From IMG/VR virus record IMGVR_UViG_2778261687_000008: a stretch of 15,253 nucleotides of DNA; one strand, written 5' to 3'. This DNA is from a virus. Its lineage: Duplodnaviria; Heunggongvirae; Uroviricota; Caudoviricetes. Below the pieces are notes generated by a model. It was not told where the DNA came from, ran no database searches, and saw only the letters and a program-made list of their open reading frames with translations. The first letter of the stretch is position 1. Each line of letters starts with the position of its first letter. The translations under genes and the position numbers were made by a program. Shown here piece after piece: positions 904 to 15,253 of this stretch.

Positions 904-1193
904 ATCATAACGTCCGGTTTCTTCCGTGTCAGCACCGGGGCGTTGGCATAATGCAATACGTGTACGCGCTAAACCCTGTGTGCATCGTTTTTAATTATTC
1001 CCGGACACTCCCGCAGAGAAGTTCCCCGTCAGGGCTGTGGACATAGTTAATCCGGGAATACAATGACGATTCATCGCACCTGACATACATTAATAAATAT
1101 TAACAATATGAAATTTCAACTCATTGTTTAGGGTTTGTTTAATTTTCTACACATACGATTCTGCGAACTTCAAAAAGCATCGGGAATAACACC

Positions 1194-1487
1194 ATGAAAA
1201 AAATGCTACTCGCTACTGCGCTGGCCCTGCTTATTACAGGATGTGCTCAACAGACGTTTACTGTTCAAAACAAACCGGCAGCAGTAGCACCAAAGGAAAC
1301 CATCACCCATCATTTCTTCGTTTCTGGAATTGGGCAGAAGAAAACTGTCGATGCAGCCAAAATTTGTGGCGGCGCAGAAAATGTTGTTAAAACAGAAACC
1401 CAGCAAACATTCGTAAATGGATTGCTCGGTTTTATTACTTTAGGCATTTATACTCCGCTGGAAGCGCGTGTGTATTGCTCACAATAA
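1194..1487 (+). CDS. borD: Bor-family outer-membrane lipoprotein (lambda Bor homologue, serum-resistance moron)
   Basis: 97-aa ORF with signal peptide and lipobox LITGC. Near-identical to my recollection of lambda Bor. Convergent with Rz, as in lambda. Confidence 0.9.
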   Translation: MKKMLLATALALLITGCAQQTFTVQNKPAAVAPKETITHHFFVSGIGQKKTVDAAKICGGAENVVKTETQQTFVNGLLGFITLGIYTPLEARVYCSQ

Positions 1488-1493
1488 TTGCAT

Positions 1494-1519
1494 GAGTTGC
1501 CCATCGATATGGGCAACTC
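1494..1519. terminator. Inverted repeat between convergent bor and Rz (candidate bidirectional terminator or RNA stabiliser)
   Basis: gagttgcccat-cgat-atgggcaactc forms an 11-bp stem with a 4-nt loop directly after both stop codons. There is no strong U-tract on either strand, so confidence is low. Confidence 0.3.
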
Positions 1520-1980
1520 TATCTGCACTGCTCATTAATATACTTCTGGGTTCCTTCCAGTTGTTTTTGCACAGTGATCAGCCTCTCTCTGAGGGTGAAA
1601 TAATCCCGTTCAGCGGTGTCTGCCAGTCGGGGGGAGGCTGCATTATCCACGCCGGAGGCGGTGGTGGCTTCACGCACTGACTGACAGACTGCTTTGATGT
1701 GCAACCGACGACGACCAGCGGCAACATCATCACGCAGAGCATCATTTTCAGCTTTAGCATCAGCTAACTCCTTCGTGTATTTTGCATCGAGCGCAGCAAC
1801 ATCACGCTGACGCATCTGCATGTCAGTAATTGCCGCGTTCGCCAGCTTCAGTTCTCTGGCATTTTTGTCGCGCTGGGCTTTGTAGGTAATGGCGTTATCA
1901 CGGTAATGATTAACAGCCCATGACAGGCAGACGATGATGCAGATAACCAGAGCGGAGATAATCGCGGTTACTCTGTTCAT
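1519..1980 (-). CDS. rzpD: Rz i-spanin (inner-membrane spanin subunit)
   Basis: Near-identical to lambda Rz as I recall it. N-terminal TM helix followed by a coiled-coil periplasmic domain. ATG at 1980-1978 overlaps the endolysin stop as ATGA. The ORF track's upstream start at 1992 is less likely. Confidence 0.85.
1578..1760 (-). CDS. rzoD: Rz1 o-spanin lipoprotein, embedded in the +1 frame of Rz
   Basis: 60-aa ORF entirely inside Rz in a different frame. Signal peptide with lipobox VVGC and a proline-rich mature part (PPPPPAW...PPPDW), matching lambda Rz1. Confidence 0.85.
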
Positions 1981-2474
1981 TGCTGACCCCACAAACAGAT
2001 TTCACGCTCAATCTCACGACGAGTCATGAGACCTTTCCATTGCTTACCGCCAGCATATGTCCAGCGACGTAGCTGATCACATGCGCCTTTGATATCGCCC
2101 TGGTTTATTTTGCGAAGAAGCGTCGATGTTCTGAAATTGCCAGCACCCACGTTGTAAACGAATGAGTAAAGAGCGCCGCGCGTTGTTTCCGGTATATCGA
2201 CTTTGATGTACGGGTTAATTTGTCTGGCGACAGTGGCAAGGTCTTTATTCAAGAGTGCTTTGCATTCTGCTTTGGTATACGTTTTACCGAGCATGATGTC
2301 TTTTCCTGTATGCCCGTGACATACAGTCCATACACCAACAATATCTTTATATGGTATGTAGCTGACACCTTCCAGACCATCATCACCACTCGGACCAGTG
2401 ATGAGCACAGACGCTATGGCAACAGCCCCACCACCAATAGCAGCTGCTACAGCCTTGCGTAATGATGGCGACAT
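1977..2474 (-). CDS. rrrD: SAR endolysin (T4-lysozyme-type, phage 21 R-like)
   Basis: 165 aa. N-terminal weakly hydrophobic Gly/Ala-rich SAR helix ([20 protein letters not shown]), then an E...D...T catalytic triad context (LEGVSY...KDIVGVWT). Start overlaps the holin stop by 1 nt (TAATG). Confidence 0.9.
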
Positions 2475-2689
2475 TATTCACCTCTCGCAGCCTTACGCTT
2501 ATCTTCTTTAATCTTGAAATAAAGGTTTGTCAGGTACGTCAGCAGGCCAAATACCAGGCTACCCAGCACTCCAATTGCCGCCCACTGTGAGGGCGTGACT
2601 TTATCTAGCAGCTGTAAAAACCAGTACCCGGCACTACCTGCTGAGGTGCCATAGGCGACACCCGTTGTTAACTTATCCATGGATTTCAT
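2474..2689 (-). CDS. essD: Pinholin (class II holin, S21-like)
   Basis: 71 aa with two TM helices and a charged C-terminus ([11 protein letters not shown]). Dual-start motif M1-K-S-M4, as in S21 holin/antiholin. Confidence 0.9.
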
Positions 2690-2810
2690 AACCCCACCTC
2701 GCAGACAAAGCGGGTGTAAATTGAGGGAATACTACGAAACGTAACAGACTCGGAGTCAGTGAATAACTCAGGTATTGGGTTATCAGCTAATATCGAGACT
2801 CAAAAAATGG

Positions 2811-2834
2811 AAAAACCCGCTCGACGGCGGGTTT
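2811..2834 (-). terminator. Candidate intrinsic terminator upstream of the lysis cassette (tR'-like position)
   Basis: Minus-strand reading is AAACCCGC-CGTCGA-GCGGGTTT followed by TTTTTCC: a GC-rich stem with a U-run, about 125 nt upstream of the holin start. Confidence 0.45.
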
Positions 2835-3262
2835 AAGCTGTGTGACGAAGTAACCACTCTTAACAGCATAACCAATTTTTTACGTACGTAAACCACTAAA
2901 TGATATTTGCGAGAATGCTACCGAGTATTGAAAACACCACTACAAATACATAAGCAAATCTCAACAAATAACCAACAAATAATTTACAGTGTTATTTTTA
3001 TCCGATTTAAATTGAACCTTCAAATTATAGATCACTTATAAATAACAGCCGTTAATATAAACTGGCTAATAGATTTATTTTTATTCAGCCACGAGCTATA
3101 AATAGGATTCGATAGAAAAAAGTTCAGATAAAAATAGAGATCTACTTCACAAATCAAACGAGAAACCAAAACTTACATCTTGAAATAATCACATTGATTA
3201 GATGAATATTTATCGCGCAGTGACATCATTTTTTAATAATAGTTCAAAAAAAAGGGCTCACG

Positions 3263-4345
3263 ATGAAAAAATTAACAGTGGCAATTTCTGCTGTAGCTGC
3301 ATCAGTACTGATGGCGATGTCTGCTCAGGCAGCTGAAATTTATAATAAAGACAGTAACAAGCTGGATCTGTACGGGAAAGTTAATGCTAAGCACTACTTC
3401 TCCTCTAATGATGCAGATGATGGTGATACTACTTATGCCCGTCTTGGCTTCAAAGGTGAAACCCAAATCAACGATCAGCTGACTGGTTTCGGTCAGTGGG
3501 AATATGAATTCAAAGGCAACCGCGCTGAATCTCAAGGTTCCTCCAAAGACAAAACCCGTCTTGCATTTGCAGGCCTGAAATTCGGTGACTACGGCTCAAT
3601 CGATTACGGCCGTAACTACGGTGTAGCATACGACATCGGTGCGTGGACTGACGTTCTGCCAGAATTCGGTGGCGATACCTGGACCCAAACAGATGTGTTC
3701 ATGACTGGTCGTACCACTGGTGTTGCAACCTATCGTAACAACGACTTCTTTGGTCTGGTTGATGGTCTGAACTTTGCTGCTCAGTATCAGGGTAAAAATG
3801 ACCGCACTGACGTAACTGAAGCTAATGGTGATGGTTTCGGTTTCTCCACTACTTATGAGTATGAAGGATTCGGTGTAGGTGCAACCTATGCTAAATCTGA
3901 CCGCACTAATAATCAGGTTATCTACGGTAACAACAGCCTGAATGCATCTGGTCAAAATGCTGAAGTATGGGCAGCTGGTCTGAAATATGATGCGAACAAC
4001 ATCTATCTGGCTACCACCTATTCTGAAACCCAGAACATGACTGTTTTTGGTAATAACCATATTGCCAACAAAGCACAAAACTTCGAAGTAGTTGCACAAT
4101 ATCAGTTCGACTTCGGTCTGCGTCCGTCCGTTGCTTACCTGCAATCTAAAGGAAAAGACTTGGGTGCGTGGGGTGATCAGGACCTGGTTGAATATATTGA
4201 TGTAGGTGCAACCTATTACTTCAACAAAAATATGTCCACTTTTGTTGATTACAAAATCAACCTGATTGATAAGAGCGATTTCACGAAAGCATCTGGCGTT
4301 GCTACCGATGATATCGTTGCTGTAGGTATGGTTTACCAGTTCTAA
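3263..4345 (+). CDS. nmpC: General bacterial porin, OmpC/OmpF/PhoE family (NmpC/Lc-type prophage porin), apparently intact
   Basis: 360 aa. Signal peptide ending AQA|AEIYNK, aromatic/glycine-rich beta-barrel pattern, C-terminal ...VYQF. AAAGGG Shine-Dalgarno upstream. Opposite strand to the flanking Q and lysis genes. Confidence 0.9.
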
Positions 4346-4360
4346 TTTGATTACTAAAAG

Positions 4361-4394
4361 ATATGTTGCGGGAGGCTTTGCCTCCCCAACATAT
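4361..4394. terminator. Long hairpin just downstream of the nmpC stop (candidate terminator or RNA structure)
   Basis: atatgttg-c-gggaggc-ttt-gcctccc-caacatat: 15 paired bases with one bulge. The minus-strand version is followed by CUUUU; the plus-strand version has no U-tract. Confidence 0.3.
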
Positions 4395-4482
4395 AAGTGG
4401 CTCCCTCAAGCCACTTCCTTTAGGAGCACAACCTTGCTTCTAACTATATAAACCTTCTGTTATATATTACCCTTTATTTTTG

Positions 4483-4506
4483 GGGGCGTTGCAACGCCCC
4501 ATTTTT
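4483..4506 (+). terminator. Candidate rho-independent terminator (plus strand)
   Basis: ggggcgttg/caacgcccc perfect 9-bp palindrome followed by A-TTTTT on the plus strand, about 140 nt downstream of nmpC. Confidence 0.5.
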
Positions 4507-4533
4507 AATAATTTTTAGTAAACAATTGGCATA

Positions 4534-4917
4534 TTAATTAGAGTTATTAACAACGATATCCATCTCTAACCGGATATCTAATGCCATTAACATCCCTTCA
4601 ATTATGCCCTCAGCCTTCTGTAACCTTTTCCCGATATAACCATCAGAGCAGCAATGCTTACCTGCCAGTGACATGAATGTCATACCGACTACATAATAAT
4701 CTACTAATAAATCGTGCAAATCGCTGTTGTTCTTTTTCAGACGGGCCATGCACCCGCAAATAATCATCGCGTCATCGTCACAACATTGCGGGCGAGATTT
4801 TACTTTTGAAGTAATTAATCCCTTAAAACCGGCGGCAATGGACGACCAGGTCACATCTTCATGATTATTAGCCGCCCACGCTCCCCAACGCTCAAGAACC
4901 ATCTGAATATCACGCAT
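4534..4917 (-). CDS. quuD: Late-gene antiterminator Q (phage 21/82-type)
   Basis: 127 aa from MRDIQMV. Cysteine-rich (CC...C..C and CC) zinc-binding pattern. Matches my recollection of DLP12 QuuD. The ORF track's 132-aa start at 4932 is probably too long. Confidence 0.8.
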
Positions 4918-5002
4918 CAACTTACTCCACAAAAATCAGACCAGAACGCCAATTACAAGCAAAAATCAACAAAACAGTATTAGTTGATTGTTATCTCTGA
5001 CT

Positions 5003-5140
5003 TCATACTCCTGCTCCTGTCAGGGTTTTGGCGTAATTCTTCAGTATTCGGTAATCGGTCAAAACAGAACCGGGGAAACGATATAAGCGCAGATGCCCCC
5101 AGCGGTGGCGAAGAAGTTCTGCCATATAAAACTCAAACAT
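5003..5140 (-). CDS. ylcG: Small protein YlcG-like (45 aa)
   Basis: Manually translated ([45 protein letters not shown]). Below the ORF-track length cutoff. Its ATG overlaps the rusA stop (TGATG). Confidence 0.55.
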   Translation of the reverse strand: MFEFYMAELLRHRWGHLRLYRFPGSVLTDYRILKNYAKTLTGAGV

Positions 5141-5501
5141 CATTCATTCCCCATTTCGGTGATGGTCAGTTCCAGCCTCCCACCTTTGGTAACAGGCATC
5201 TTCACAACGCGGTAATCAACGACCTGAGCATCATCCAGCCAGAAACCTGCTTTGGTGAGTGCGTCAAAAGCGGCTTTTTGCAGATTATCCAGGTCACGGC
5301 GACGGCGATCCGGCATGTGGCACTCAATACGGATTTTCACTGGCATAGCCAGGCCGATATCCAGCATTGCGTTTTTAATGATTCGGGTGACGTTATCGCG
5401 GTATGCCTGCCCTTCTGCGCTGATGTGTGTGCGCCCGCGATTATGGCGGTAATAGCGGTTATTGCTCGGAGGCCAGGGAATGTGATGCTGTAGGTATTCA
5501 C
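5140..5501 (-). CDS. rusA: RusA Holliday-junction resolvase; N-terminus is frame-disrupted (possible pseudogene or non-canonical start)
   Basis: The core ...[24 protein letters not shown]...[28 protein letters not shown]... is in one frame back to a stop at 5521-5523, with no ATG/GTG/TTG before the Met at 5365-5367. A GTG-NTYSIT N-terminus-like segment (5481-5501) sits in a different frame. Confidence 0.6.
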
Positions 5502-5788
5502 GCCTTAATAACCCCCTCTTTCAGCCAGATAACCTGCGTTCTCGCCATACCTTCCAGCGCGCATTCTTTTGCATACTCAGCATCGACAAAATATGTGCGG
5601 CGGTCGATTTCGTCGTGACAGGCAGAACATGCAATGGTGGCAATAAGGTCTGGCGGTTTAATACCGGTGCCGCACAATCCAGCCAGCCGGATATGTGCCA
5701 GTACAGACGTTTCAGGGTTGCCATTACATACGCCAGTGATTCTTACCTGGCATTCCCGACCACGCGCTGCTTTTCTCAAATCAGCCAT
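5498..5788 (-). CDS. ybcO: DUF1364-family protein YbcO-like (putative nuclease)
   Basis: 96 aa from [10 protein letters not shown]. Cysteine-rich. Start overlaps the ninE stop (ATGGCTGA). Gene-order context ninB-ninE-ybcO-rusA. Confidence 0.75.
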
Positions 5789-5951
5789 GATTCCTCCTTG
5801 CTGCCAGTCGCAACCATTTTTTATCAACCAGGCTGGCGGTATATCCGAGCAGTGTTGGTATTTCGGATGGCTTCAGCTCAGGTTTACGCTTACGACGATT
5901 TGGTACTCTGTAGATGTGTCCGTTCATGACACGAATAAGCGGTGTAGCCAT
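5781..5951 (-). CDS. ninE: NinE-family protein (56 aa)
   Basis: Manually translated [59 protein letters not shown] overlaps the ninB stop (TAATG). Not in the ORF track because it is under 60 aa. Confidence 0.75.
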   Translation of the reverse strand: MATPLIRVMNGHIYRVPNRRKRKPELKPSEIPTLLGYTASLVDKKWLRLAARRNHG

Positions 5952-6406
5952 TACGCCTCCTGCTTGTCGCGCAGCAGCTGGAACTCGCAGCTCTGCGGAA
6001 TAGTCAGGTGGCAGCCAATATTCATCGCCCAGGCTTCAACCTTACACAGGAAGACATACATCTCTCCGGCATCAAGATCGGAGGTATGGCGTAACGACTG
6101 GATAGTGGTGATTTCACCGGTTACGACATCAACCAGTTCTTTGGTTTCATAACCGAGGTATGTGTGTTTGAGAGCTTCTTTTACCCATGCTGCGGTAGCG
6201 AACGATTTCCCCCTGCTGATAAGGTATTCACTGATTTCGCTGTACCACATGTGGCTGAGTGCATTCTGGGAAAGACTGCGTTTCTCACGCCACGGTTTAA
6301 GCACCATGCGAAAGCATTTTCCGTCCTCCAGATAAGGCTGGATCTGCTGGCCGATAGCGGTGAAGTTGCCACGATGTAATTTGATGCCATCTTGTGGTAG
6401 GTTCAC
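5951..6406 (-). CDS. ybcN: NinB-family recombination protein (YbcN-like)
   Basis: 151 aa. GTG start preceded by GGAGGT. NinB-like pattern (R..SL.QN...) and position in the nin region. Confidence 0.8.
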
Positions 6407-6504
6407 GCTTCACCTCCGCAGAGGTCAAACGTTGGATGCAAAAAATCGCAGGTGCATTTCTGCATCTGTGAAGGGAGAAGAGAGTTTAGATTGTATGTGC
6501 GCAT
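6403..6504 (-). CDS. ylcH: Small cysteine-containing protein (33 aa), ylcH-like by position
   Basis: Manually translated [33 protein letters not shown]. Its stop overlaps the ybcN GTG start (GTGA). Identity rests on position and size only. Confidence 0.4.
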
Positions 6505-6832
6505 AAACGTCCCCGTTTAGCGCAAACCCACCGCCGGGTGTTCAGGCCGACAGTAACTATATTATTTCCTACTGTTTTTTAAAAATCAAAGGCCTTTATA
6601 CGTCACACGAGAGCAAATATTTCCGAAGAAGAAACCTTTCGCCTTGAAAGGATAAAGAGCTCATTTCATAAATTGAAATATTCAATAAGAATATTGCAAA
6701 AAATGAAATTATTTACTAGCGAGTCTATCTAACTGATAATTATGAAGATTGTAAGCGGTAGCAATCACCCGCATACACATTGAACAGGATTTAATACAAA
6801 ACGTCTTAAATTGTCCGTAAGGAATAGCACGA

Positions 6833-7849
6833 ATGACTCAAACTCCACTATTACTTGCAATCATATTTTTATTGGTTGTTCTTGTTCTATATATAGCTGC
6901 AATCAAACGCATCAAAAAAATACAATTAGAATTAAGTGATAGCAATCAAAAAAATGAAGAATACAAATCTCGCTTTGCAGATTATTTTAATGTGGAAGAG
7001 GAATGTAAGAAGCTTATTGAGAAAACAGAGCAAGAATGCTCCATTATAAAAGAAGAGTCCCAAAAAGTAAAAGAAAATGCCAATAATGAACTAACAAACA
7101 CCATTGAAAAAATGGATGGTATCAATAAACAAATCCAAGAACTAAGAAGAACTTATAAAGAGAAGAAAGAAATATATGATAAGCTAGTAAAGCAAATTTC
7201 TATTTATTCAGAAGATGTTGAACTAGCCGAACTAGGATTTTACGAACCTCATTTTAATTTTGAAGATTCAGAGCAATTTAAAAACAAAATAAAATCCATC
7301 AGGGATGAACAGAAATTAATGCTGCGGGATAAAACCCACTCTGGTGCAGTATATTGCACAACCCAATGGACTGTTGAAGGCTCTCGAGCAGAGGGTAAAA
7401 AAATGACAGACAGAAATATTAGGCTAACTACTAGAGCATTTAATAATGAATGTGATGCTGCAATTAGTAATTGCACGTGGAAAAATATCACTAAAATGGA
7501 AGAACGCATCACAAAGGCATTTGAGGACATAAATAAACTAAACGAGCAAAATCACATATATATAAATACTAAATACCTTAATAAAAAACTTGAGGAGTTG
7601 TGGCTTACCCATGAATATCGTGAGCAAAAACAGAAAGAAAAAGAAGAACAGGCAGAAATAAGGGCACAAATGAGAGAGGAGGAGCGTGCACAACGAGAAA
7701 TAGAAAAGGCCATGCAAGACGCAGAGGCAGAAGAGCGCCGTTATAAAAAAGCAATTGAAGCTGCAAGAAAGGAAATGGAAAAAGTTACTGGTGACATGAA
7801 GCAGCGCCTCGAAAATCGCATTGCCGAACTAGAACAGAGTTTGTCGTAG
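6833..7849 (+). CDS. Membrane-anchored coiled-coil protein (DUF4041-like N-terminal module; cargo gene A)
   Basis: 338 aa. Single N-terminal TM helix (LLLAIIFLLVVLVLYIAAI), then long E/K/Q-rich heptad-like coiled-coil segments and a highly charged C-terminus. AAGGA Shine-Dalgarno 10 nt upstream. AT-rich codon usage. Confidence 0.7.
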   Translation: MTQTPLLLAIIFLLVVLVLYIAAIKRIKKIQLELSDSNQKNEEYKSRFADYFNVEEECKKLIEKTEQECSIIKEESQKVKENANNELTNTIEKMDGINKQIQELRRTYKEKKEIYDKLVKQISIYSEDVELAELGFYEPHFNFEDSEQFKNKIKSIRDEQKLMLRDKTHSGAVYCTTQWTVEGSRAEGKKMTDRNIRLTTRAFNNECDAAISNCTWKNITKMEERITKAFEDINKLNEQNHIYINTKYLNKKLEELWLTHEYREQKQKEKEEQAEIRAQMREEERAQREIEKAMQDAEAEERRYKKAIEAARKEMEKVTGDMKQRLENRIAELEQSLS

Positions 7850-7879
7850 GCTGAATCAAAGCATCAAAGAGCATTATCC

Positions 7880-8335
7880 ATGGCACAACAAACCAAACAA
7901 GGTCATGTTTATATTATTTCGAACATAGGTTCTTTTGGGGAGAATGTTTATAAAATAGGCATGACACGACGTCTTGATCCACAAGACCGTGTAAATGAGC
8001 TTGGTGATGCATCTGTTCCTTTTATTTTTGATGTGCATGCCATGATTTATTCGGAGGACGCTCCATCATTAGAAAAAAAACTACATGATGTCTTCGATAA
8101 AAAGAGAGTCAATCTTGTAAATCGTAGAAAAGAGTTTTTCTATGTTACTCTGGATGAGATCAAAGAAGCTGTTAAAAAACACTCTGATTCAGAAATTGAA
8201 TTTATTGAGACAGCAGTCGCAAAAGACTTTAATGAGTCATTGGCTATTCGTAATCATGAAAATAAAAAAAGCGACAACAGCAACTCATCAATCATACTTG
8301 AGCGAAAAATCCCAGAGTTTGCAGATGTAATTTAA
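7880..8335 (+). CDS. T5orf172 / GIY-YIG-like nuclease-domain protein (cargo gene B); in frame with gene A across a single TAG
   Basis: 151 aa. Motifs GHVYIISN...VYKIGMTRR...R..EL...PF fit the GIY-YIG / T5orf172 (MUG113) pattern. Weak Shine-Dalgarno. Same reading frame as gene A with 10 sense codons between. Confidence 0.65.
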   Translation: MAQQTKQGHVYIISNIGSFGENVYKIGMTRRLDPQDRVNELGDASVPFIFDVHAMIYSEDAPSLEKKLHDVFDKKRVNLVNRRKEFFYVTLDEIKEAVKKHSDSEIEFIETAVAKDFNESLAIRNHENKKSDNSNSSIILERKIPEFADVI

Positions 8336-8604
8336 TTAATTTGTAGTTAAAACAAAACAGGCATCGTTGATACTTTTTGGTCAGCGATGCTTACATCCTC
8401 CTCTCGGAAAACGTCGATTACTTGCAACTTTATTTTTAATTTCCAGCAGCAAGTACTAATGCACAACCTCCATTACATACTGATTTGAACATCACGAATC
8501 CCGCCTCTAGCTTAAACTACAAAGTATTACCAGAATCAATCTTATTCATAACTAAACTCCACAGACCAATTGAACATATGAATCCATATTGATATGCTAC
8601 ATCA

Positions 8605-8633
8605 CAATGTGTTAACCATTAGATAACACATTG
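8605..8633. promoter_or_regulatory. Perfect 10-bp inverted repeat with 9-bp spacer upstream of the HD-domain gene (candidate operator)
   Basis: caatgtgtta-N9-taacacattg, 62-90 nt upstream of the ATG at 8695. Its right arm overlaps a TTGAAA -35-like hexamer (8631-8636). Confidence 0.3.
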
Positions 8634-8694
8634 AAACTATAAACATCATTACTATTTAAATTTCGTATTATAACTACAGCAAAAGGAAAGCCTC

Positions 8695-10242
8695 ATGACA
8701 AACAAAAACAAACTTGAGAACTTTGAAGACTTACTTCTGGGGAAGTTTTTAGATCCCATACATGGAGTGATTCGAATAACTAAGCTAGAAAAAAAGATAA
8801 TTGACCATCCTTTATTCCAACGACTACGAGATATCAGGCAGAACACGTTTCTATATAAAGTATTTCCTTCTGCAATGCACTCTCGCTTTGAACACTCTGT
8901 CGGTGTAATGCATTTATCGTATGAAATATTAAAAAATATTGATTTAAATGCACTAATTTACAATCGAAAAAATATGGGCATTGATCTATATTTAGATATA
9001 AAAAAAATGCCTTCAAGTCTTATACAGGAGTTACGTATTGCAGCATTGTTACACGATGTTGGGCATGGCCCACTTGCCCACCAATTCGATAGTTTTGCAA
9101 TATCCGTAAAAGATTTCAAAGAAAAATGCAAAACTGAAGGAAATAAACAATACGATAAGATTATATCTTTAAGTGATAATGACAAGTTAACCCACGAACA
9201 AGTATCATGTATTTTTATTAAAGAAATTATTGAAGAATTAAAAAATGAAGCCCAAGATAAATCAAATGACGACGATGTCTATAAAGAAAACATAGCGGCT
9301 ATTAATCCAGAAAGCATTATAAAAATTGTTGATAAAAGATATGATTTTAAAAATAACATTGAGGGAGTAAATGTATATCCTTTATTAGGTTCAATCATAT
9401 CATCTTCACCTATAGATGCGGACAGAATGGACTACCTACTTAGAGATAGCTACTTCTCCGGCGTTAAATATGGGATTTATGATTATGGACGATTATTAAT
9501 GTCATTTATTCCTGTGAAAGTTGAAAATAGTGTTTACCTGGCATATAAAGAAAGTGGTATGGATTCAATACTAGAATTTGCCAATGCAAGAAGTGGGCTT
9601 TATAGTCAAGTTTATTTTCATAAGACCAATCGTGCACTATCTGCGATGCTTAACAAAGCGTGTTCTAGAAAAAAAACTGATGATGTTGTCTATTTAAAAT
9701 CTAAAAACACTCTCATTGAGTCCATCAAACACTTTTATCGTGAAAACCCAGACAAAACGTTTTTAGAAAACACTCTTAAAAACACATTAGATAAAAATTC
9801 TCAAGCTATAATTCAAGATATTGTTGATAGAAATGTTTGGAAAAAAATATATGAAAAAAAACACACGTTTTCTAATGTTAACATTTCCGACAACAGATAC
9901 AAAGAATATAAACAAAATATATCTAAGAAAATCAACAAAATCATTGAGGATAATTTAAAAGGAGATGAATGGGTTCTTGATTTTCAGATTGAAGATAACT
10001 TTAAAGATATCGATACAAGTCAAGCTAAAATAATAAAAAAAGAAACAGGCGGCAAGTATACAATAAATGATTTATGTAAGTATAACGATGTACTTCAACC
10101 CTATCACTATGTTAAATTCTTTATTCGAGTTTTTGTTTCTAAGACAACTCAACTCCAAAACACCGAAGAAATTAATGTGTTAATAAAAAAAATAGATAAA
10201 TGTCTTAATGATGAGATTGATCATATTAAAAAAGACAAGTAG
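8695..10242 (+). CDS. HD-domain dNTP triphosphohydrolase, SAMHD1/dGTPase-like (cargo gene C)
   Basis: 515 aa. Motifs DPIHG (aa 20-24), RFEHSVGV (H67), LLHDVGHGPLAH (H120-D121) and DADRMDYLLRD (aa 241-251) align with the SAMHD1-type catalytic core as I recall it. AAGGAAAG Shine-Dalgarno. Lys-rich, divergent C-terminal third. Confidence 0.85.
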   Translation: MTNKNKLENFEDLLLGKFLDPIHGVIRITKLEKKIIDHPLFQRLRDIRQNTFLYKVFPSAMHSRFEHSVGVMHLSYEILKNIDLNALIYNRKNMGIDLYLDIKKMPSSLIQELRIAALLHDVGHGPLAHQFDSFAISVKDFKEKCKTEGNKQYDKIISLSDNDKLTHEQVSCIFIKEIIEELKNEAQDKSNDDDVYKENIAAINPESIIKIVDKRYDFKNNIEGVNVYPLLGSIISSSPIDADRMDYLLRDSYFSGVKYGIYDYGRLLMSFIPVKVENSVYLAYKESGMDSILEFANARSGLYSQVYFHKTNRALSAMLNKACSRKKTDDVVYLKSKNTLIESIKHFYRENPDKTFLENTLKNTLDKNSQAIIQDIVDRNVWKKIYEKKHTFSNVNISDNRYKEYKQNISKKINKIIEDNLKGDEWVLDFQIEDNFKDIDTSQAKIIKKETGGKYTINDLCKYNDVLQPYHYVKFFIRVFVSKTTQLQNTEEINVLIKKIDKCLNDEIDHIKKDK

Positions 10243-10283
10243 AGCCCCCCTGATGTTTTAAAAAACATCTTAACTATAAACAC

Positions 10284-10318
10284 AACGCCATTAGTTACTC
10301 TCAGTAACTAGTGGCGTT
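10284..10318 (+). terminator. Long hairpin downstream of the HD-domain gene (candidate terminator or processing/stability element)
   Basis: aacgccattagttact-ctc-agtaactagtggcgtt: 16-bp stem (one G-U wobble) with a 3-nt loop, 42 nt after the stop. No U-tract. Confidence 0.35.
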
Positions 10319-10612
10319 CATGTCTAATGATTGACCCGCAGTATTATCTGGTGCTTGTCAATCAGATTTATTCATTGTTTAATACTACCTCAGCATCCTG
10401 TTATACGCTACACAACCATTATTACTCATCCTTTGAGTTACATTTAATATCTAAAATATTTTTGTGTTAATCAATGTGTGGATATATTCCCTACTAATTC
10501 ACTAATTCATACAGCACCAAGCTAGAAACATTGTTATAGTTCCCCGCACAAAGCAAACCATTAAATTTGATTGGATGTTTTCGAGATAACCATCAAATCA
10601 AGTAATAACTAA

Positions 10613-10894
10613 TCACCCATATACCGCCAACACCCGCTTCATCGCGGCACTCTGGCGACACTCCTTAAAAATCAGGTTCGTGCTCACCTTTCCTTCCCGT
10701 TCTTCTCTGGTAGCGAACCGGTAATACACCGTTCGCCAGACCTTACCATCAATGACCAGGATTCCTGCCCGCGCCATTTTAGCTGCTGCCTGATTTATGC
10801 AGGTTACTGTCACACCTGTTGCCGCAGCAACGTCCTGCGCACAGAAGCTCTTGTGCGTCTCCAGATAATGAATAATTACCTCTTTGCCCGTCAT
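10613..10894 (-). CDS. ren: Ren-like protein (lambda ren homologue)
   Basis: 93 aa, near-identical to my recollection of lambda Ren. ATGA overlap with the P stop. Confidence 0.8.
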   Translation of the reverse strand: MTGKEVIIHYLETHKSFCAQDVAAATGVTVTCINQAAAKMARAGILVIDGKVWRTVYYRFATREEREGKVSTNLIFKECRQSAAMKRVLAVYG

Positions 10895-11592
10895 ACAGTT
10901 GCTCCTTTCAGTCCGAACTTCGCTTTGATTTCTGCGATCTTCGCCAGAGCCTGTGCACGATTTAGAGGTCTACCGCCCATGACAGGAAGTTGTTTTACTG
11001 GTTCAGGTATCGCCTCACCACGGTTAATTCGCGCGGTCATACAAGTCAGTTCATCGGCAGCCTTGCGCCGTAATTCCGCATCAGTAAGCGCATTGGCCCG
11101 CATGTTCTGGTACAGGTTGGTAACCAGCCAGTAGTGCGCGTTTGATTTCCACGGATAAGACTCTGCATCCGGATACAGGCCACGCTTCCGACAATACTCA
11201 TAGACCATATCAACCAGCTCGCTGACGTTTGGCAGCCCGGCGTTAACGGATGCTTCTTCCCGGCACCAGGCAACAAACTGCCCGGGTGATGGCAGGAATG
11301 GTCGATTCTGCCGACGGGCTACGCGCATTCCTGCGTTAACCTGTTCCATTGTGGTGATCCCGTTTTCCCGGAAAGCCAGCACCCACTGGCGGCGGATTTC
11401 GTTCAGTTCGTTCTGGTCCCGGTTAGCCAGGCTCGCCGGGAAAGTTGCCAGTAACTGGCTGAACACACCATTGATGATCTGCGCTACCTGTTGTACCTGC
11501 GGCTTTTCGTCGTACTGTTCCGGCATGTTGTTGGCGATCCGGCGCATCTGCTCACGGTCAAAGTTAACCATCTGTGCGGCGATGTTTTTCAT
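10891..11592 (-). CDS. P: Replication protein P (DnaB helicase loader), lambda P-like
   Basis: 233 aa, near-identical to lambda P as recalled. Start overlaps the O-fragment stop (ATGA). Confidence 0.9.
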   Translation of the reverse strand: MKNIAAQMVNFDREQMRRIANNMPEQYDEKPQVQQVAQIINGVFSQLLATFPASLANRDQNELNEIRRQWVLAFRENGITTMEQVNAGMRVARRQNRPFLPSPGQFVAWCREEASVNAGLPNVSELVDMVYEYCRKRGLYPDAESYPWKSNAHYWLVTNLYQNMRANALTDAELRRKAADELTCMTARINRGEAIPEPVKQLPVMGGRPLNRAQALAKIAEIKAKFGLKGATV

Positions 11593-11786
11593 AGCTCCAC
11601 CCCGTAAATCCAGTCAGTGTTCGTCAGGTCGAGTTTTGGTTTGCCGGCTGTCACGCCAGCCTGTTGCTTGTTTCGGTTGATTTCGAGCTGGGTCCACTTG
11701 TCGCGGAGTTTGGCCGGACTCAGCACGTTACCGGACCAGAAGTTGTCCTGGCATGCCCAGCGGAACAGTACACACATGTCGCGGTG
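11589..11786 (-). pseudogene. O: C-terminal fragment of replication initiator O (N-terminal origin-binding part absent)
   Basis: The frame ends ...FWSGNVLSPAKLRDKWTQLEINRNKQQAGVTAGKPKLDLTNTDWIYGVEL, matching the lambda O C-terminus. Upstream residues of the ORF are antisense to exo and not O-like. The upper boundary is approximate. Confidence 0.7.
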
Positions 11787-11787
11787 G

Positions 11788-11829
11788 TTCCTGAAACAGA
11801 AAGCCACTGAGCAGAAGGTGGCAGCATGA
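11788..11829 (+). pseudogene. bet: 3' remnant of bet (Red-beta) fused at a deletion junction
   Basis: Last about 13 codons encode [13 protein letters not shown] with the stop overlapping the exo ATG (ATGA), matching the lambda Bet C-terminus as recalled. Nothing Bet-like lies further upstream. Confidence 0.5.
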
Positions 11830-12506
11830 CACCGGACATTATCCTGCAGCGTACCGGGATCGACGTGAGAGCTGTCGAACAGGGGGATGATGCATGGCAC
11901 AAATTACGGCTCGGCGTCATCACCGCTTCAGAAGTTCACAACGTGATAGCAAAGCCCCGCTCAGGAAAGAAGTGGCCTGACATGAAAATGTCCTACTTCC
12001 ACACCCTGCTGGCTGAGGTTTGCACCGGTGTGGCTCCGGAAGTTAATGCTAAGGCGCTGGCCTGGGGAAAACAGTACGAGAACGACGCCAGAACCCTGTT
12101 TGAATTCACTTCCGGCGTGAATGTTACTGAATCCCCGATCATCTATCGCGACGAAAGTATGCGCACCGCCTGCTCTCCAGATGGTTTATGCAGTGACGGC
12201 AACGGCCTTGAACTGAAATGCCCGTTTACCTCCCGGGATTTCATGAAATTCCGGCTCGGTGGTTTTGAGGCAATAAAATCGGCTTACATGGCCCAGGTGC
12301 AGTACAGCATGTGGGTGACGCGAAAAGATGCCTGGTACTTTGCCAACTATGACCCGCGCATGAAGCGTGAAGGCCTGCATTATGTCGTGATTGAGCGGGA
12401 TGAAAAGTACATAGCGAGTTTTGACGAGATGGTGCCGGAGTTCATCGAAAAAATGGACGAGGCACTGGCTGAAATTGGTTTTGTATTTGGGGAGCAATGG
12501 CGATGA
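11826..12506 (+). CDS. exo: Lambda-type exonuclease (Red-alpha / Exo)
   Basis: 226 aa, near-identical to lambda Exo as recalled. Appears full-length. Confidence 0.9.
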
Positions 12507-12685
12507 CGCATCCTCACGATAATATCCGGGTAGGCGCGATCACTTTCGTCTACTCCATTACAAAGCGAGGCTGGGTATTTCCCGGCCTTTCTGTTATCAG
12601 AAATCCACTGAAAGCACAGCGGCTGGCTGAGAAGATAAATAATAAACGGGGGGCTGTATGCATAAAGCATCTCCCGTTGAGTTAA
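12503..12685 (+). CDS. Small phage protein, lambda orf60a-like (60 aa)
   Basis: ATG overlaps the exo stop (ATGA). Size and position match lambda orf60a. Confidence 0.55.
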
Positions 12686-12849
12686 GAACGAGTATCGAGA
12701 TGGCACATAGCCTCGCTCAAATTGGAGTCAGGTTTGTGCCAATACCAGTAGAAACAGACGAAGAATTTCATACGTTAGCCGCATCCCTTTCACAAAAGCT
12801 GGAAATGATGGTGGCGAAAGCAGAAGCAGATGAGAGAGACCAGGTATGA
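12658..12849 (+). CDS. Small phage protein, lambda orf63-like (63 aa)
   Basis: 63-aa [26 protein letters not shown]..., at the lambda orf63 position. It overlaps the preceding ORF by 28 nt in another frame. Confidence 0.55.
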   Translation: MHKASPVELRTSIEMAHSLAQIGVRFVPIPVETDEEFHTLAASLSQKLEMMVAKAEADERDQV

Positions 12850-12929
12850 CAACCACTGAATGCATTTTTCTGGCAGCGGGCTTCATATTCTGTGTGCTTA
12901 TGCTTGCCGACATGGGACTTGTTCAATGA
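12846..12929 (+). CDS. Putative 27-aa hydrophobic micro-protein (translationally coupled on both sides)
   Basis: Manually translated MTTTECIFLAAGFIFCVLMLADMGLVQ. Its start overlaps the orf63-like stop (ATGA) and its stop overlaps the next ORF's ATG (ATGA). Speculative. Confidence 0.3.
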   Translation: MTTTECIFLAAGFIFCVLMLADMGLVQ

Positions 12930-13141
12930 CACCTCAGCAGGAAAACGCCCTTCGCAGCATTGCCCGTCAGGCTAATTCTGAAATCAAAAAAGCCAGACAG
13001 CAGTTTCCGGATAAAAACGTCGATGACATTTGCCGTAGCGTACTGAAGAAGCACCGCGAAACGGTAACGCTGATGGGATTCACACCGACTCATTTAAGCC
13101 TGGCGATCGGCATGTTAAACGGCTTCTTTAAGGAGCGATGA
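12926..13141 (+). CDS. Hypothetical phage early-left region protein (71 aa)
   Basis: ORF from ATG 12926 (MTPQQENALRSIARQANSEIKK...). The ORF track's longer version from 12860 overlaps the micro-ORF. Followed by a terminator-like hairpin. Confidence 0.5.
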   Translation: MTPQQENALRSIARQANSEIKKARQQFPDKNVDDICRSVLKKHRETVTLMGFTPTHLSLAIGMLNGFFKER

Positions 13142-13884: not shown

Positions 13885-14121
13885 ATGTCTCGACTAATCA
13901 CTTTACAGGACTGGGCTAAAGAAGAATTTGGGGACTTAGCACCAAGTGAGCGAGTTCTGAAAAAATACGCGCAAGGGAAAATGATGGCCCCACCCGCTAT
14001 AAAAGTTGGTCGCTACTGGATGATTGACCGAAATTCCCGTTTTGTAGGAACGCTGGCAGAACCGCAACTCCCAATAAACGCAAACCCAAAACTCCAACGG
14101 ATAATCGCTGATGGCTGCTAG
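13885..14121 (+). CDS. xis: Putative excisionase / recombination directionality factor
   Basis: 78-aa ORF with strong AAGAGGAGG Shine-Dalgarno. Ends 11 nt inside the integrase ORF, the typical xis-int arrangement. Not lambda-Xis-like in sequence. Confidence 0.55.
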   Translation: MSRLITLQDWAKEEFGDLAPSERVLKKYAQGKMMAPPAIKVGRYWMIDRNSRFVGTLAEPQLPINANPKLQRIIADGC

Positions 14122-15253
14122 ACCCCGATCTCACAAAATCTCTATACCCAATTTATATTGCAAATTAGATAAGCGAACCGGAAAGGTATATTGGCAATAC
14201 AAACATCCACTATCCGGTCGTTTTCATAGCTTAGGAACTGATGAGAATGAAGCAAAACAAGTTGCTACTGAAGCAAATACCATTATTGCTGAACAACGTA
14301 CCAGACAAATATTAAGCGTCAATGAGCGTCTGGAAAGAATGAAAGGCAGGCGCTCAGACATTACGGTGACAGAATGGCTTGATAAATATATTTCTATCCA
14401 GGAGGACAGGCTGCAACATAATGAACTAAGACCCAACTCCTATCGGCAAAAAGGCAAACCCATTCGTCTTTTCCGTGAGCATTGTGGAATGCAACACCTC
14501 AAGGATATTACCGCACTTGATATTGCCGAAATAATTGATGCTGTAAAGGCTGAAGGTCATAACAGGATGGCGCAAGTCGTGAGAATGGTGTTGATCGACG
14601 TCTTCAAAGAAGCACAACACGCAGGACATGTTCCGCCAGGATTTAACCCAGCGCAGGCAACAAAACAACCGCGAAATCGAGTAAACCGCCAAAGATTGTC
14701 ACTGCCCGAATGGCAGGCAATATTTGAAAGCGTAAGCAGACGGCAGCCCTATTTAAAATGCGGCATGCTACTTGCTCTTGTTACTGGACAACGTTTAGGC
14801 GATATCTGCAATTTGAAATTCTCTGATATATGGGACGACATGTTGCACATTACTCAGGAAAAAACCGGTTCAAAACTTGCTATTCCGCTTAACCTGAAAT
14901 GCGATGCTCTGAATATTACCCTTCGTGAAGTTATATCTCAGTGCAGGGATGCTGTTGTTAGTAAATATCTGGTCCATTACCGTCACACTACCTCTCAAGC
15001 AAACAGAGGAGACCAGGTTTCTGCAAATACTCTGACAACGGCTTTTAAAAAGGCCAGGGAAAAATGTGGCATAAAATGGGAGCAAGGAACTGCGCCCACA
15101 TTTCATGAGCAGCGATCTCTGTCAGAACGGTTATATCGGGAACAGGGTCTGGATACGCAAAAGTTGTTAGGCCATAAATCCAGAAAAATGACCGACCGAT
15201 ACAATGATGATCGTGGTAAAGACTGGGTTATCGTAGATATCAAAACAGCATAG
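14111..15253 (+). CDS. int: Phage integrase, tyrosine recombinase family
   Basis: 380 aa. C-terminal catalytic pattern: Arg box, HEQRS (HxxR), LLGHKS and Tyr in DRYNDD. Stop TAG is at the last bases of the window, so att sites are expected outside it. Confidence 0.9.
   Translation: MAARPRSHKISIPNLYCKLDKRTGKVYWQYKHPLSGRFHSLGTDENEAKQVATEANTIIAEQRTRQILSVNERLERMKGRRSDITVTEWLDKYISIQEDRLQHNELRPNSYRQKGKPIRLFREHCGMQHLKDITALDIAEIIDAVKAEGHNRMAQVVRMVLIDVFKEAQHAGHVPPGFNPAQATKQPRNRVNRQRLSLPEWQAIFESVSRRQPYLKCGMLLALVTGQRLGDICNLKFSDIWDDMLHITQEKTGSKLAIPLNLKCDALNITLREVISQCRDAVVSKYLVHYRHTTSQANRGDQVSANTLTTAFKKAREKCGIKWEQGTAPTFHEQRSLSERLYREQGLDTQKLLGHKSRKMTDRYNDDRGKDWVIVDIKTA

What the first reader, a model, noticed from the sequence alone, without database searches (positions are those of the whole stretch)
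6505..10612. AT-rich, opposite-strand cargo island between ylcH/ninB and ren: candidate anti-phage defence module
The flanking genes (ylcH, ninB, ninE on one side; ren, P on the other) are lambdoid backbone on the minus strand. The roughly 4 kb between them carries three plus-strand genes with visibly A/T-dominated codons and long intergenic spacers (6505-6832, 8336-8694, 10243-10612). They encode a TM plus coiled-coil protein, a GIY-YIG/T5orf172-like domain protein and a SAMHD1-like HD dNTPase. In K-12 DLP12, as I recall it, the same backbone position holds different cargo (emrE, ybcK, ybcL, ybcM). A variable cargo slot in a prophage holding a nucleotide-depleting enzyme next to a nuclease-domain protein fits the profile of a defence hotspot. 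I do not recognise this gene combination as a named system.
Basis: partly seen in the sequence, partly recalled or inferred. Interest (0 to 1): 0.85.

Follow-up and report, generated by a model that had tools for sequence, protein, structure and literature searches.

The report
Broken SNIPE gene plus SAMHD1-like cassette
The AT-rich island holds two unrelated single-gene phage-defence cargoes, not a three-gene system: the known SNIPE (PD-λ-1) nuclease, inactivated here by a stop codon, and an intact, untested bacterial relative of the human antiviral enzyme SAMHD1.

Summary
The island is real: 32.8% GC (GC3 25-28%) against 48-52% (GC3 57-61%) in the flanks, plus-strand genes inside a minus-strand lambdoid backbone, in a slot that holds other cargo in K-12 and other strains. 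It holds two genes, not three.

ORF1 (6833-7849) and ORF2 (7880-8335) are one gene, SNIPE/PD-λ-1. SNIPE is a characterised membrane-anchored GIY-YIG nuclease that cuts phage DNA during injection. Here a C→T change (CAG→TAG, Q339*) splits it. The allele recurs in at least four independent assemblies, so it is a real pseudogene. None of 131 complete E. coli genomes with this SNIPE allele has it.

The third gene (8695-10242) is an intact SAMHD1/EF1143-type HD dNTP triphosphohydrolase homologue, with catalytic and allosteric-site-1 residues conserved. It fails the models for the validated Dgt-type defensive dGTPases. It moves as a self-contained cassette (8398-10616). Relatives sit in several prophage accessory-gene slots, an integron array, and next to CBASS, R-M and Lamassu. 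A 44% relative in Klebsiella is an ordinary chromosomal gene.

No SNIPE homologue accompanies it outside E. coli. Its defence role is plausible but I found no test of it. Overall: a known system plus a probable new branch of a known kind.

The parts
6403..6504 (-). ylcH-like 33-aa ORF; left backbone boundary of the cargo slot
   Evidence: Annotated as a hypothetical protein at the equivalent position in 730V1 and as ylcH in K-12.
6505..6832 (+). Non-coding region upstream of SNIPE, presumed to hold its native promoter
   Evidence: No ORF of 50 aa or more. Travels with SNIPE in SNIPE-only prophages; the match to L003/L004 runs from about 6436 to 8394. The promoter is inferred, not shown; one weak sigma-70-like site lies at 6712-6740.
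6833..8335 (+). SNIPE / PD-λ-1 gene (500 codons), here a pseudogene
   Evidence: 99.87% identical to the intact 1503-bp CDS of 730V1, with a stop at codon 339. PADLOC PD-Lambda-1 matches in two pieces, E 2e-105 and 4e-82.
6833..7849 (+). ORF1: N-terminal SNIPE fragment (TM helix, coiled coil, DUF4041), 338 aa
   Evidence: Pfam DUF4041/SNIPE PF13250, E 1.1e-19. PADLOC profile positions 1-337 of 491.
7847..7849 (+). Premature TAG (Q339*), from CAG by C→T at 7847
   Evidence: Absent from 131 complete genomes with this allele. The exact truncated product is present in at least 4 independent contigs.
7880..8335 (+). ORF2: C-terminal SNIPE fragment (GIY-YIG/T5orf172 nuclease, includes the Glu equivalent to catalytic E414), 151 aa
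   Evidence: Pfam T5orf172 E 3e-18 and MUG113 E 5e-20. PADLOC profile positions 350-485. E65 of ORF2 is residue 414 of the full-length numbering, counted; the role of E414 is from PMC13190303.
8398..10616 (+). HD cassette (2219 bp), absent from SNIPE-only prophages, where about 211 unrelated bp take its place
   Evidence: Breakpoints from alignment with L003. Present in 21 of 5426 complete E. coli genomes.
8540..8694 (+). Conserved 5' non-coding region of the cassette: putative promoter/leader, motif TTGAATATATGAATCCATATTGATATGCT, Shine-Dalgarno AAAGGAAAG
   Evidence: Conserved between E. coli, Proteus, Serratia and Enterobacter copies that lie in unrelated contexts. No Rfam match. Function is inferred.
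8695..10242 (+). SAMHD1/EF1143-type HD dNTP triphosphohydrolase homologue, 515 aa, intact
   Evidence: phmmer against PDB: Aq_1910 5e-30, EF1143 8e-27, human SAMHD1 about 1e-25 over residues 19-430. AF2 pLDDT 87.4. Foldseek top hits are SAMHD1, E about 1e-17, TM 0.6-0.7.
10285..10317 (+). Conserved 3' hairpin of the cassette (14-bp stem, 5-nt loop, no U-tract)
   Evidence: RNAalifold consensus on six copies; 3 of the 18 predicted pairs (two in this 14-bp stem, one in the short adjacent hairpin) keep pairing after changes on both sides, others through G·U. Function unknown.
10613..10894 (-). ren; right backbone boundary of the slot
   Evidence: Annotated 'protein ren' in 730V1, followed by replication protein P (Pfam, 8.8e-62).

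Best explanation
The island is two independently acquired single-gene cargoes stacked in the hypervariable ylcH-ren slot of a decaying lambdoid prophage.

Cargo 1 is SNIPE (PD-λ-1). It is an inner-membrane-anchored protein whose DUF4041 domain binds DNA and probably the phage tape-measure protein, and whose C-terminal GIY-YIG nuclease cuts siphovirus DNA as it is injected. In this window a single C→T change creates TAG at codon 339. The membrane/DUF4041 part is therefore made without the nuclease, and the gene is most likely non-functional.

Cargo 2 is an intact SAMHD1/EF1143-type HD enzyme. I infer that it hydrolyses dNTPs to deoxynucleosides plus triphosphate, and that it is switched on allosterically by (d)GTP/dNTP when phage infection perturbs nucleotide pools. 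That would starve phage DNA replication, as the validated bacterial dGTPases and human SAMHD1 do.

Shown here: gene identities, the lesion, the fold, conserved catalytic residues, cassette mobility, and genomic associations. Inferred: enzymatic activity, the trigger, and the anti-phage role of the HD protein.
For: SNIPE identity and lesion. The allele is real and inherited and is absent from 131 complete genomes with this SNIPE allele. Nuclease activity is required for SNIPE defence: E414A abolishes it (PMC13190303).

HD protein:
- Direct sequence homology to SAMHD1 across the whole catalytic core.
- Confident model and SAMHD1 as best fold match.
- Family-invariant H67, H120, D121, H124, H129, D241, D243, Y247, H309 and K310, aligning with SAMHD1 H167, H206, D207, H210, H215, D309, D311, Y315, H376 and K377. 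Q42 and R45 align with allosteric-site-1 Q142 and R145.

Independence of the two genes.

Cassette behaviour: conserved flanks in four unrelated contexts.

Conflict-type contexts of relatives:
- P2-like Baseplate/V-S slot, twice.
- Tail-fibre to tape-measure slot.
- DUF968 to KwaB-like.
- An island bracketed by icd fragments, beside CBASS.
- Beside a type II R-M system.
- HigBA islet.
- V. cholerae cassette array among toxin-antitoxin pairs.
- Zorya II, Lamassu, DarTG, dGTPase and PDC-S08 components among 120 neighbours of 16 loci.

The family is patchily distributed, in 54 species-representative genomes across several phyla. Dgt-type dNTPases are validated phage defences (Tal et al. preprint; PMC13519002; PMC12265719).
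Against: - I found no experimental test of this HD family. PADLOC v2 has no model for it.
- The 44% Klebsiella relative is a conserved chromosomal gene (cluster of 3530 sequences) in a metabolic neighbourhood. 'Phage' records that carry it merely over-extend into host DNA.
- Many of the 16 gammaproteobacterial loci have ordinary neighbours, and I ran no background control for the defence-neighbour count.
- SAMHD1 Q375 is F308 here, and the D137 equivalent is not invariant in the family, so substrate range and allostery may differ.
- The HD gene is itself truncated in some E. coli assemblies.
- For SNIPE, amber suppression, readthrough, or non-covalent complementation of the two halves cannot be excluded from sequence.
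Confidence: 0.55

Rival explanations
1. The HD protein has a non-defence role. It would be a dNTP-pool or other nucleotide-housekeeping enzyme (for example control of dNTP levels in non-growing cells) that happens to hitch-hike as an accessory gene, or that benefits the prophage's own physiology.
For: The Klebsiella relative is a conserved chromosomal gene between an SDR and a DJ-1/PfpI gene. Many neighbours of family members are metabolic genes. Dgt-type dNTPases are known to have cell-cycle roles (PMC11071499, listed). No phenotype is known for this family.
Against: The close subclade (64% identity or more) is found only as a mobile single-gene cassette: in prophage accessory slots, in an icd island beside CBASS, and in a HigBA islet. 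It is present in only 0.4% of complete E. coli genomes. It is AT-rich, foreign DNA. A housekeeping gene would not show this distribution.
Confidence: 0.25
2. The HD protein is not a dNTPase but another HD-superfamily hydrolase, for example a nuclease or a phosphodiesterase that degrades signalling nucleotides. That could even make it a prophage counter-defence factor.
For: The Pfam HD hit alone is weak (29 bits). SAMHD1 Q375, a substrate-contact residue as I recall it, is replaced by F308. SAMHD1 itself binds nucleic acids (PMC7854603, listed).
Against: Homology is full-length to the SAMHD1/EF1143/Aq_1910 clade, including the C-terminal lobe. The metal ligands, the R64/H124/H129/Y247/D251 equivalents and the allosteric-site Q/R are all conserved.
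Confidence: 0.1
3. SNIPE is still functional in this strain. This could be through amber suppression (a glnV/supE-type suppressor would restore the original Gln), through readthrough, or through re-initiation at ATG 7880 with the two halves working together.
For: The mutation is CAG→TAG, exactly the change a Gln-inserting amber suppressor reverts. A weak Shine-Dalgarno-like AAGAG lies 8 nt before ATG 7880. The allele persists in several isolates.
Against: SNIPE is destroyed in at least four other independent ways in sister prophages: a frameshift, a stop at codon 257, IS1 insertions, and an IS1-associated deletion. The same prophage has a frameshifted rusA and a deleted O-to-exo region. That pattern fits simple decay. 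Natural isolates rarely carry efficient amber suppressors (my own knowledge). Nuclease-less SNIPE does not defend.
Confidence: 0.07
4. One reading: the three ORFs form one new multi-gene defence system, made of a membrane sensor, a nuclease and a dNTPase.
For: Adjacency and shared strand in all 21 complete E. coli genomes that have the HD gene.
Against: ORF1 and ORF2 are one gene. SNIPE works alone (PMC13190303). SNIPE occurs alone in about 110 genomes. No SNIPE homologue lies within 10 kb of the HD gene in 69 other loci. A 360-bp spacer with the cassette's own conserved promoter region separates the two genes.
Confidence: 0.03

Closest known systems
SNIPE / PD-λ-1 (Vassallo et al. 2022, PMC9519451; Saxton et al. 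2026, PMC13190303)
   Same: Window 6833-8335 is this gene. It has the same 500-codon length and the same architecture (TM helix, DUF4041, GIY-YIG/T5orf172). A Glu sits at position 414. The PADLOC PD-Lambda-1 profile is matched end to end. The prophage location is the same as in phage PhiR26_1, where the gene is annotated PD-lambda-1.
   Different: Here it is interrupted by TAG at codon 339, so the nuclease is uncoupled from the membrane anchor and the DNA-binding domain. It is most likely inactive.
Human SAMHD1 and bacterial EF1143 / Aq_1910 (SAMHD1-type, COG1078 dNTP triphosphohydrolases)
   Same: Direct sequence homology over the whole catalytic core, and the best fold match. The H..HD..D metal site, the catalytic His residues, and Q/R of allosteric site 1 are conserved.
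   Different: No SAM domain. About 22% identity. Q375→F308. The oligomeric state, activators and substrate range are unknown. It is carried on a prophage as a mobile cassette.
Defensive dGTPases of the Dgt type (Tal et al. 2022; Vdg, PMC13519002; PADLOC/DefenseFinder 'dGTPase')
   Same: HD-superfamily enzymes that are predicted, or shown, to defend by hydrolysing dNTPs. They are single-gene systems often found in defence islands.
   Different: A different branch. PADLOC dGTPase gives only E 0.0018 over 95 residues, and TIGR01353 gives 21.8 bits against a cutoff of 152. No Dgt-type structure appears among PDB sequence hits at E ≤ 1. The authors say the Tal dGTPases could not be aligned directly to SAMHD1; this protein aligns directly.
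Clover (CloA dNTPase + CloB nucleotidyltransferase; PMC12265719)
   Same: An HD dNTPase effector under allosteric nucleotide control. This is a useful model for how a potentially toxic dNTPase can be kept off until infection.
   Different: No partner gene. The cassette holds only the HD ORF, and no nucleotidyltransferase was seen next to relatives in the contexts examined.
Ogmios (V. cholerae chromosomal-integron cassette, putative dGTPase; bioRxiv 10.1101/2024.07.02.601686)
   Same: A single-gene HD/dGTPase-like cassette with demonstrated anti-phage activity that escapes the standard dGTPase model. A 44% relative of the window protein also sits in a V. cholerae cassette array.
   Different: I could not obtain the sequence. 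Indirect clues suggest Ogmios is Dgt-type: it has BLAST homology to DefenseFinder dGTPases, and a homologue is predicted to form hexamers. The V. cholerae representative genome gave no hit to this family. Unresolved.

Membership tests
SNIPE / PD-λ-1 | N-terminal membrane anchor | tested here: met
   Residues 5-23 (PLLLAIIFLLVVLVLYIAA) form a hydrophobic helix, read directly from the translation. No TM predictor was run.
SNIPE / PD-λ-1 | Central DUF4041 (PF13250) domain | tested here: met
   Pfam E 1.1e-19, 70.5 bits against a cutoff of 27.
SNIPE / PD-λ-1 | C-terminal GIY-YIG/T5orf172 nuclease with the catalytic Glu (E414) | tested here: met
   T5orf172 E 3e-18 and MUG113 E 5e-20. Glu is at full-length position 414. 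The role of E414 is from PMC13190303.
SNIPE / PD-λ-1 | All three parts in one uninterrupted polypeptide | tested here: not met
   In-frame TAG at codon 339. The gene is intact in 730V1 and in the sister loci I read (L002-L004, L015, L020-L022), and none of 131 complete genomes has the TAG. So this copy is a pseudogene of a family member.
SNIPE / PD-λ-1 | Full-length match to the family profile | tested here: met
   PADLOC PDLC03976: ORF1 covers positions 1-337 (E 2.4e-105) and ORF2 covers 350-485 (E 4.2e-82) of 491.
SNIPE / PD-λ-1 | Protection against λ and other siphoviruses by cleaving injected DNA | not testable with these tools
   Needs plaque assays of the TAG allele and of the CAG revertant.
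SAMHD1/EF1143-type dNTP triphosphohydrolase | HD-domain metal site H...HD...D | tested here: met
   H67, H120, D121 and D243 align with SAMHD1 H167, H206, D207 and D311, and are invariant in 36 family members.
SAMHD1/EF1143-type dNTP triphosphohydrolase | Homology across the whole catalytic core, including the C-terminal lobe | tested here: met
   phmmer covers residues 19-430 against SAMHD1, E about 1e-25. Foldseek aligns about 510 columns, TM 0.62-0.71.
SAMHD1/EF1143-type dNTP triphosphohydrolase | Allosteric nucleotide site(s) | tested here: inconclusive
   The Q142/R145 equivalents (Q42, R45) are invariant. The D137 equivalent (D37) is present here but not invariant in the family. N119 is replaced by L19. 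H376/K377 are conserved.
SAMHD1/EF1143-type dNTP triphosphohydrolase | dNTP→deoxynucleoside + triphosphate activity; tetramer | not testable with these tools
   Needs enzymology and SEC-MALS or structure determination.
Defensive dGTPase (Dgt type; Tal 2022, PADLOC/DefenseFinder) | Match to the family HMM | tested here: not met
   PADLOC PDLC02374: E 0.0018, 15.7 bits, residues 59-153 only. NCBIfam TIGR01353: 21.8 bits against a cutoff of 152.35.
Clover (CloA+CloB) | Adjacent nucleotidyltransferase partner gene | tested here: not met
   No other ORF of 50 aa or more on the + strand in 8336-10612. Single-gene cassette in all contexts examined.
Ogmios | Sequence homology to the V. cholerae N16961 cassette protein | not testable with these tools
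   The sequence and HMM were not available.

The most novel reading that the evidence does not exclude
The HD cassette would be the first bacterial anti-phage dNTPase of the true SAMHD1 branch: directly alignable with the human restriction factor, and with the guanine-nucleotide allosteric site preserved. It would move between prophage accessory-gene slots, integrative islands and integron arrays as an autonomous one-gene unit with its own conserved regulatory flanks. That would give a much closer prokaryotic counterpart of SAMHD1 than the Dgt-type defensive dGTPases, and a tractable model for how dNTP-sensing allostery gates antiviral nucleotide depletion.
Probability: 0.4. Interest if true: 0.55.

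Novelty: new member of a known kind. Interest (0 to 1): 0.35.

Why it matters
The SNIPE half adds nothing new mechanistically. It does document natural decay of a potent defence gene: at least five independent lesions in one prophage lineage.

The HD half is the part worth following up. Nucleotide depletion is an established antiviral strategy from bacteria to humans, but the validated bacterial enzymes are only distant relatives of SAMHD1. A mobile, prophage-borne enzyme that aligns directly with SAMHD1 would tighten the evolutionary link, if it proves defensive. It would also extend defence-finder models to a branch they currently miss.

It is also a caution for annotation. A single stop codon can make a known system look like a new multi-gene one.

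Tried and rejected
- Rfam scan of 6300-10900 at E ≤ 1: no RNA family.
- Sigma-70 promoter and intrinsic-terminator scans: no more sites than in shuffled sequence (17 found against 18.3 expected; 2 against 2.6). They are not informative for the spacers.
- 'Phage' hits to the HD protein in Klebsiella phage records: rejected as evidence of phage carriage. The records include host flank, with the same LysR-SDR-HD-DJ-1 order as the chromosome.
- Attempts to obtain the Ogmios sequence or locus tag from the two integron papers and their supplements failed. A cluster look-up of the V. cholerae relative gave no link.
- PDB entry 9MR6, at first suspected to be a bacterial defence protein, is a fungal SAMHD1.
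- Three recent defence-discovery papers do not mention HD, SAMHD1 or dNTPase.
- My size-based guesses at which neighbours were Zorya proteins were wrong. Only Lamassu LmuB (L031) and an RtcR-like regulator (L036) were placed at locus level. So the number of loci with defence neighbours is only bounded, not counted.
- The sequencing-error explanation for the TAG was rejected, because the exact truncated product recurs in independent assemblies.

Full report
**1. The observation**

The window has a sharply bounded AT-rich block. Positions 6505-10612 are 32.8% GC, against 48.2% for the backbone on the left (4534-6504) and 52.1% on the right (10613-13141). Third-codon-position GC is 0.28 and 0.25 for the two island genes, against 0.57-0.61 for ybcN, ren, P and exo.

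All long ORFs inside the block are on the + strand. The flanking lambdoid genes are on the - strand: YbcO, NinE and NinB/YbcN on one side, ren and P on the other.

So the physical description is correct.

**2. ORF1 and ORF2 are one gene, and it is a known system**

PADLOC places ORF1 on positions 1-337 and ORF2 on positions 350-485 of the same 491-position profile, PD-Lambda-1 (E 2.4e-105 and 4.2e-82). Pfam gives DUF4041 for ORF1 and T5orf172/MUG113 for ORF2.

The two ORFs are in the same frame, separated by a single TAG at 7847-7849. The island differs at only three positions from E. coli O19:H7 strain 730V1, where the gene is one intact 1503-bp CDS. One of the three differences is T (window) for C at 7847, which turns CAG (Gln339) into TAG.

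PD-λ-1 was found in a functional screen (PMC9519451) and has been renamed SNIPE. It is an inner-membrane-anchored protein. Its DUF4041 domain binds DNA and probably the tape-measure protein. Its GIY-YIG nuclease cleaves phage DNA during injection. E414A abolishes defence, and deleting the membrane anchor makes it toxic (PMC13190303). The window's gene has the same length, and a Glu at position 414.

A stop at codon 339 uncouples the nuclease from the rest of the protein. Because a nuclease-dead full-length SNIPE does not protect, the 338-aa fragment should not protect either.

**3. The stop codon is real, and part of a pattern of decay**

- None of the 131 complete E. coli genomes that carry this SNIPE allele has the TAG. 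The best matches are 99.8% over 401 bases, which is one mismatch.
- The exact 338-aa product, followed by the 151-aa ORF, is nevertheless called on at least four contigs from independent samples. So this is an inherited allele, not a read error.
- Sister prophages that carry the identical HD protein have SNIPE destroyed in other ways:
  - a +1 A frameshift near nucleotide 81 (L016, L018);
  - a stop at codon 257 (L019 and seven similar places);
  - an IS1-associated deletion that leaves only the last 175 nt (L017);
  - IS1 insertions (three complete genomes).
- The window's prophage also has a 1-bp deletion in rusA and a deletion that joins a truncated O gene to exo.

The simplest reading is decay of a cryptic prophage. 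Amber suppression or complementation between the two halves cannot be excluded from sequence alone.

**4. The third gene**

The 515-aa protein has only a weak Pfam HD hit (29 bits). A direct search of PDB sequences is much clearer:
- Aquifex Aq_1910, 5e-30;
- Enterococcus EF1143, 8e-27;
- human SAMHD1, about 1e-25, in one alignment covering residues 19-430.

An AlphaFold2 model built from 36 homologues is confident (pLDDT 87.4, pTM 0.89). Its best matches among solved structures are human and fungal SAMHD1 (E about 1e-17, TM 0.6-0.7 over about 510 aligned columns).

Residues that align with SAMHD1's metal ligands and catalytic residues are invariant across the family. H67, H120, D121, H124, H129, D241, D243 and Y247 correspond to SAMHD1 H167, H206, D207, H210, H215, D309, D311 and Y315. 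Q42 and R45 correspond to Q142 and R145 of the guanine-nucleotide allosteric site. SAMHD1 residue roles are from my own knowledge of the literature.

Two differences from SAMHD1 stand out: Q375 is F308 here, and the D137 equivalent is not invariant in the family.

**5. It is not one of the validated defensive dGTPases**

- The PADLOC dGTPase model gives E 0.0018 over 95 residues.
- NCBIfam TIGR01353 gives 21.8 bits against a cutoff of 152.
- No Dgt-type structure appears among the PDB sequence hits at E ≤ 1.
- Tal et al. state that their dGTPases could not be aligned directly with SAMHD1. They only speculated that EF1143-like enzymes might also defend.
- Vdg is a Dgt-like V. cholerae protein.
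- Clover needs a partner nucleotidyltransferase, and there is none here.

The integron cassette Ogmios is a validated single-gene 'putative dGTPase' that also escapes the standard model. I could not obtain its sequence. Indirect clues point to the Dgt branch, but this stays open.

**6. The HD gene is an autonomous cassette, unrelated to SNIPE**

SNIPE-only prophages (L003, and phage PhiR26_1, where the gene is annotated 'PD-lambda-1') match the window up to 8397 and again from 10617. So the HD module is 8398-10616, and it replaces about 211 bp.

In complete E. coli genomes the module is rare: 21 of 5426. It is always in this position. SNIPE is present in 131 genomes.

Outside E. coli, none of 69 loci with an HD relative has a SNIPE homologue within 10 kb.

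Copies that are 75-77% identical in Proteus, Serratia and Enterobacter lie in unrelated neighbourhoods. They still share about 150-230 nt of upstream non-coding sequence and a 3' hairpin that is maintained through wobble and compensatory changes.

**7. Where relatives live**

| Context | Relative |
|---|---|
| P2-like prophage, between the baseplate genes and gpS | 68% and 64% identity |
| Between tail-fibre and tape-measure genes of another prophage type | 43% |
| Between a DUF968 gene and a KwaB-like gene | 47% |
| Next to a phage tail-tip protein J | 76% (Proteus penneri) |
| Island bracketed by icd fragments, beside a CBASS CD-NTase/Cap15 pair | 76% (Proteus mirabilis) |
| Beside HigBA | 75% (Enterobacter) |
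| Beside a type II R-M pair | 47% (Pantoea) |
| Among toxin-antitoxin cassettes of a V. cholerae cassette array | 44% |

Among 120 proteins within 5 kb of 16 gammaproteobacterial members, PADLOC finds Zorya II, Lamassu, DarTG, a Dgt-type dGTPase, PDC-S08 and an Argonaute-associated nuclease.

The family is scattered over 54 species-representative genomes from several phyla.

Against a purely defensive reading:
- the 44% Klebsiella relative is a conserved chromosomal gene, and the 'phage' records that carry it over-extend into host DNA;
- many neighbours are ordinary metabolic genes;
- I ran no background control.

**8. The slot**

Sampling other E. coli prophages with the same ybcN/ylcH and ren/P flanks shows these cargoes between them:
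- a YajG-type lipoprotein plus a hypothetical protein;
- an α/β-hydrolase with ybcK and emrE;
- a hypothetical protein, an antirepressor fragment, ybcK and emrE;
- a HEPN protein with an antirepressor fragment;
- SNIPE alone;
- Rha plus SNIPE.

It is a hypervariable accessory-gene ('moron') slot with mixed cargo, and only some of that cargo is defensive.

**9. Verdict**

It was misled by a stop codon into counting three genes and proposing an unnamed system.

Half of the island is the known SNIPE system, here a pseudogene. The other half is an intact SAMHD1-type enzyme, and its mobility and neighbourhoods make an anti-phage, nucleotide-depleting role the most likely one. That remains inference. 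I put about 0.8 on dNTPase activity and about 0.55-0.6 on a defence role.

The finding is of moderate interest. The mechanism class is known, and the specific branch appears unvalidated in the literature I could search.

Noticed in passing
window 14111-15253 (integrase); loci L017 and L018: The prophage integrase is the same 380-aa protein that abuts icd in sister loci. So this is a lambdoid prophage at the icd site (phage 21/e14-type), not at argU like K-12 DLP12. Only the nin/Q/lysis module is DLP12-like.
   Followed up: partly
window 5140-5501 (rusA): rusA carries a 1-bp deletion relative to strain 730V1, which splits it into 75-aa and 54-aa ORFs. The same 75-aa rusA is seen in the other assemblies that have the SNIPE Q339* allele.
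   Followed up: yes
window about 11785-11830: A deletion joins a truncated replication gene O directly to the exo gene region. In strain 730V1 two IS5-family elements, gam and bet lie between them. The immunity region is absent, so the prophage is defective.
   Followed up: partly
loci L016, L017, L018, L019; hits H7, H8, H15: SNIPE is inactivated in at least five independent ways among prophages that carry the identical HD protein: Q339*, a +1 frameshift at about nt 81, a stop at codon 257, IS1 insertions, and an IS1-associated deletion. I did not test whether this exceeds the rate in SNIPE-only prophages.
   Followed up: partly
window 8540-8694 and 10285-10317: The HD cassette's non-coding flanks are conserved across genera. 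The 5' region holds TTGAATATATGAATCCATATTGATATGCT, with the palindromic core ATATGAATCCATAT. The 3' flank holds a 14-bp hairpin without a U-tract that is kept by compensatory changes. There is no Rfam match. The roles (operator, mRNA stabiliser, recombination site) are unknown.
   Followed up: partly
window 3263-4345: An intact 360-aa OmpC/NmpC-type porin gene lies in the prophage between Q and the lysis genes. In K-12 DLP12 the equivalent nmpC is interrupted by IS5.
   Followed up: no
L083 (Klebsiella phage ST11-VIM1phi8.3, MK416019.1, positions 1-4700): This deposited 'phage genome' begins with host chromosomal genes (LysR, SDR, HD, DJ-1/PfpI) before the integrase. The prophage boundary was drawn too wide, which creates false phage hits for the HD family.
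   Followed up: yes
L090 (E. coli O157:H7 G5295) and L003/L087: The same prophage type carries other candidate defence cargo near the immunity region: a SIR2-family protein next to cI in O157:H7, and a HipA-family kinase plus DUF3037 pair in two other strains.
   Followed up: no
cluster of the window HD protein: Some E. coli assemblies carry truncated HD genes (247 aa; a 381 + 130 aa split). So the HD gene also decays in part of the population.
   Followed up: no
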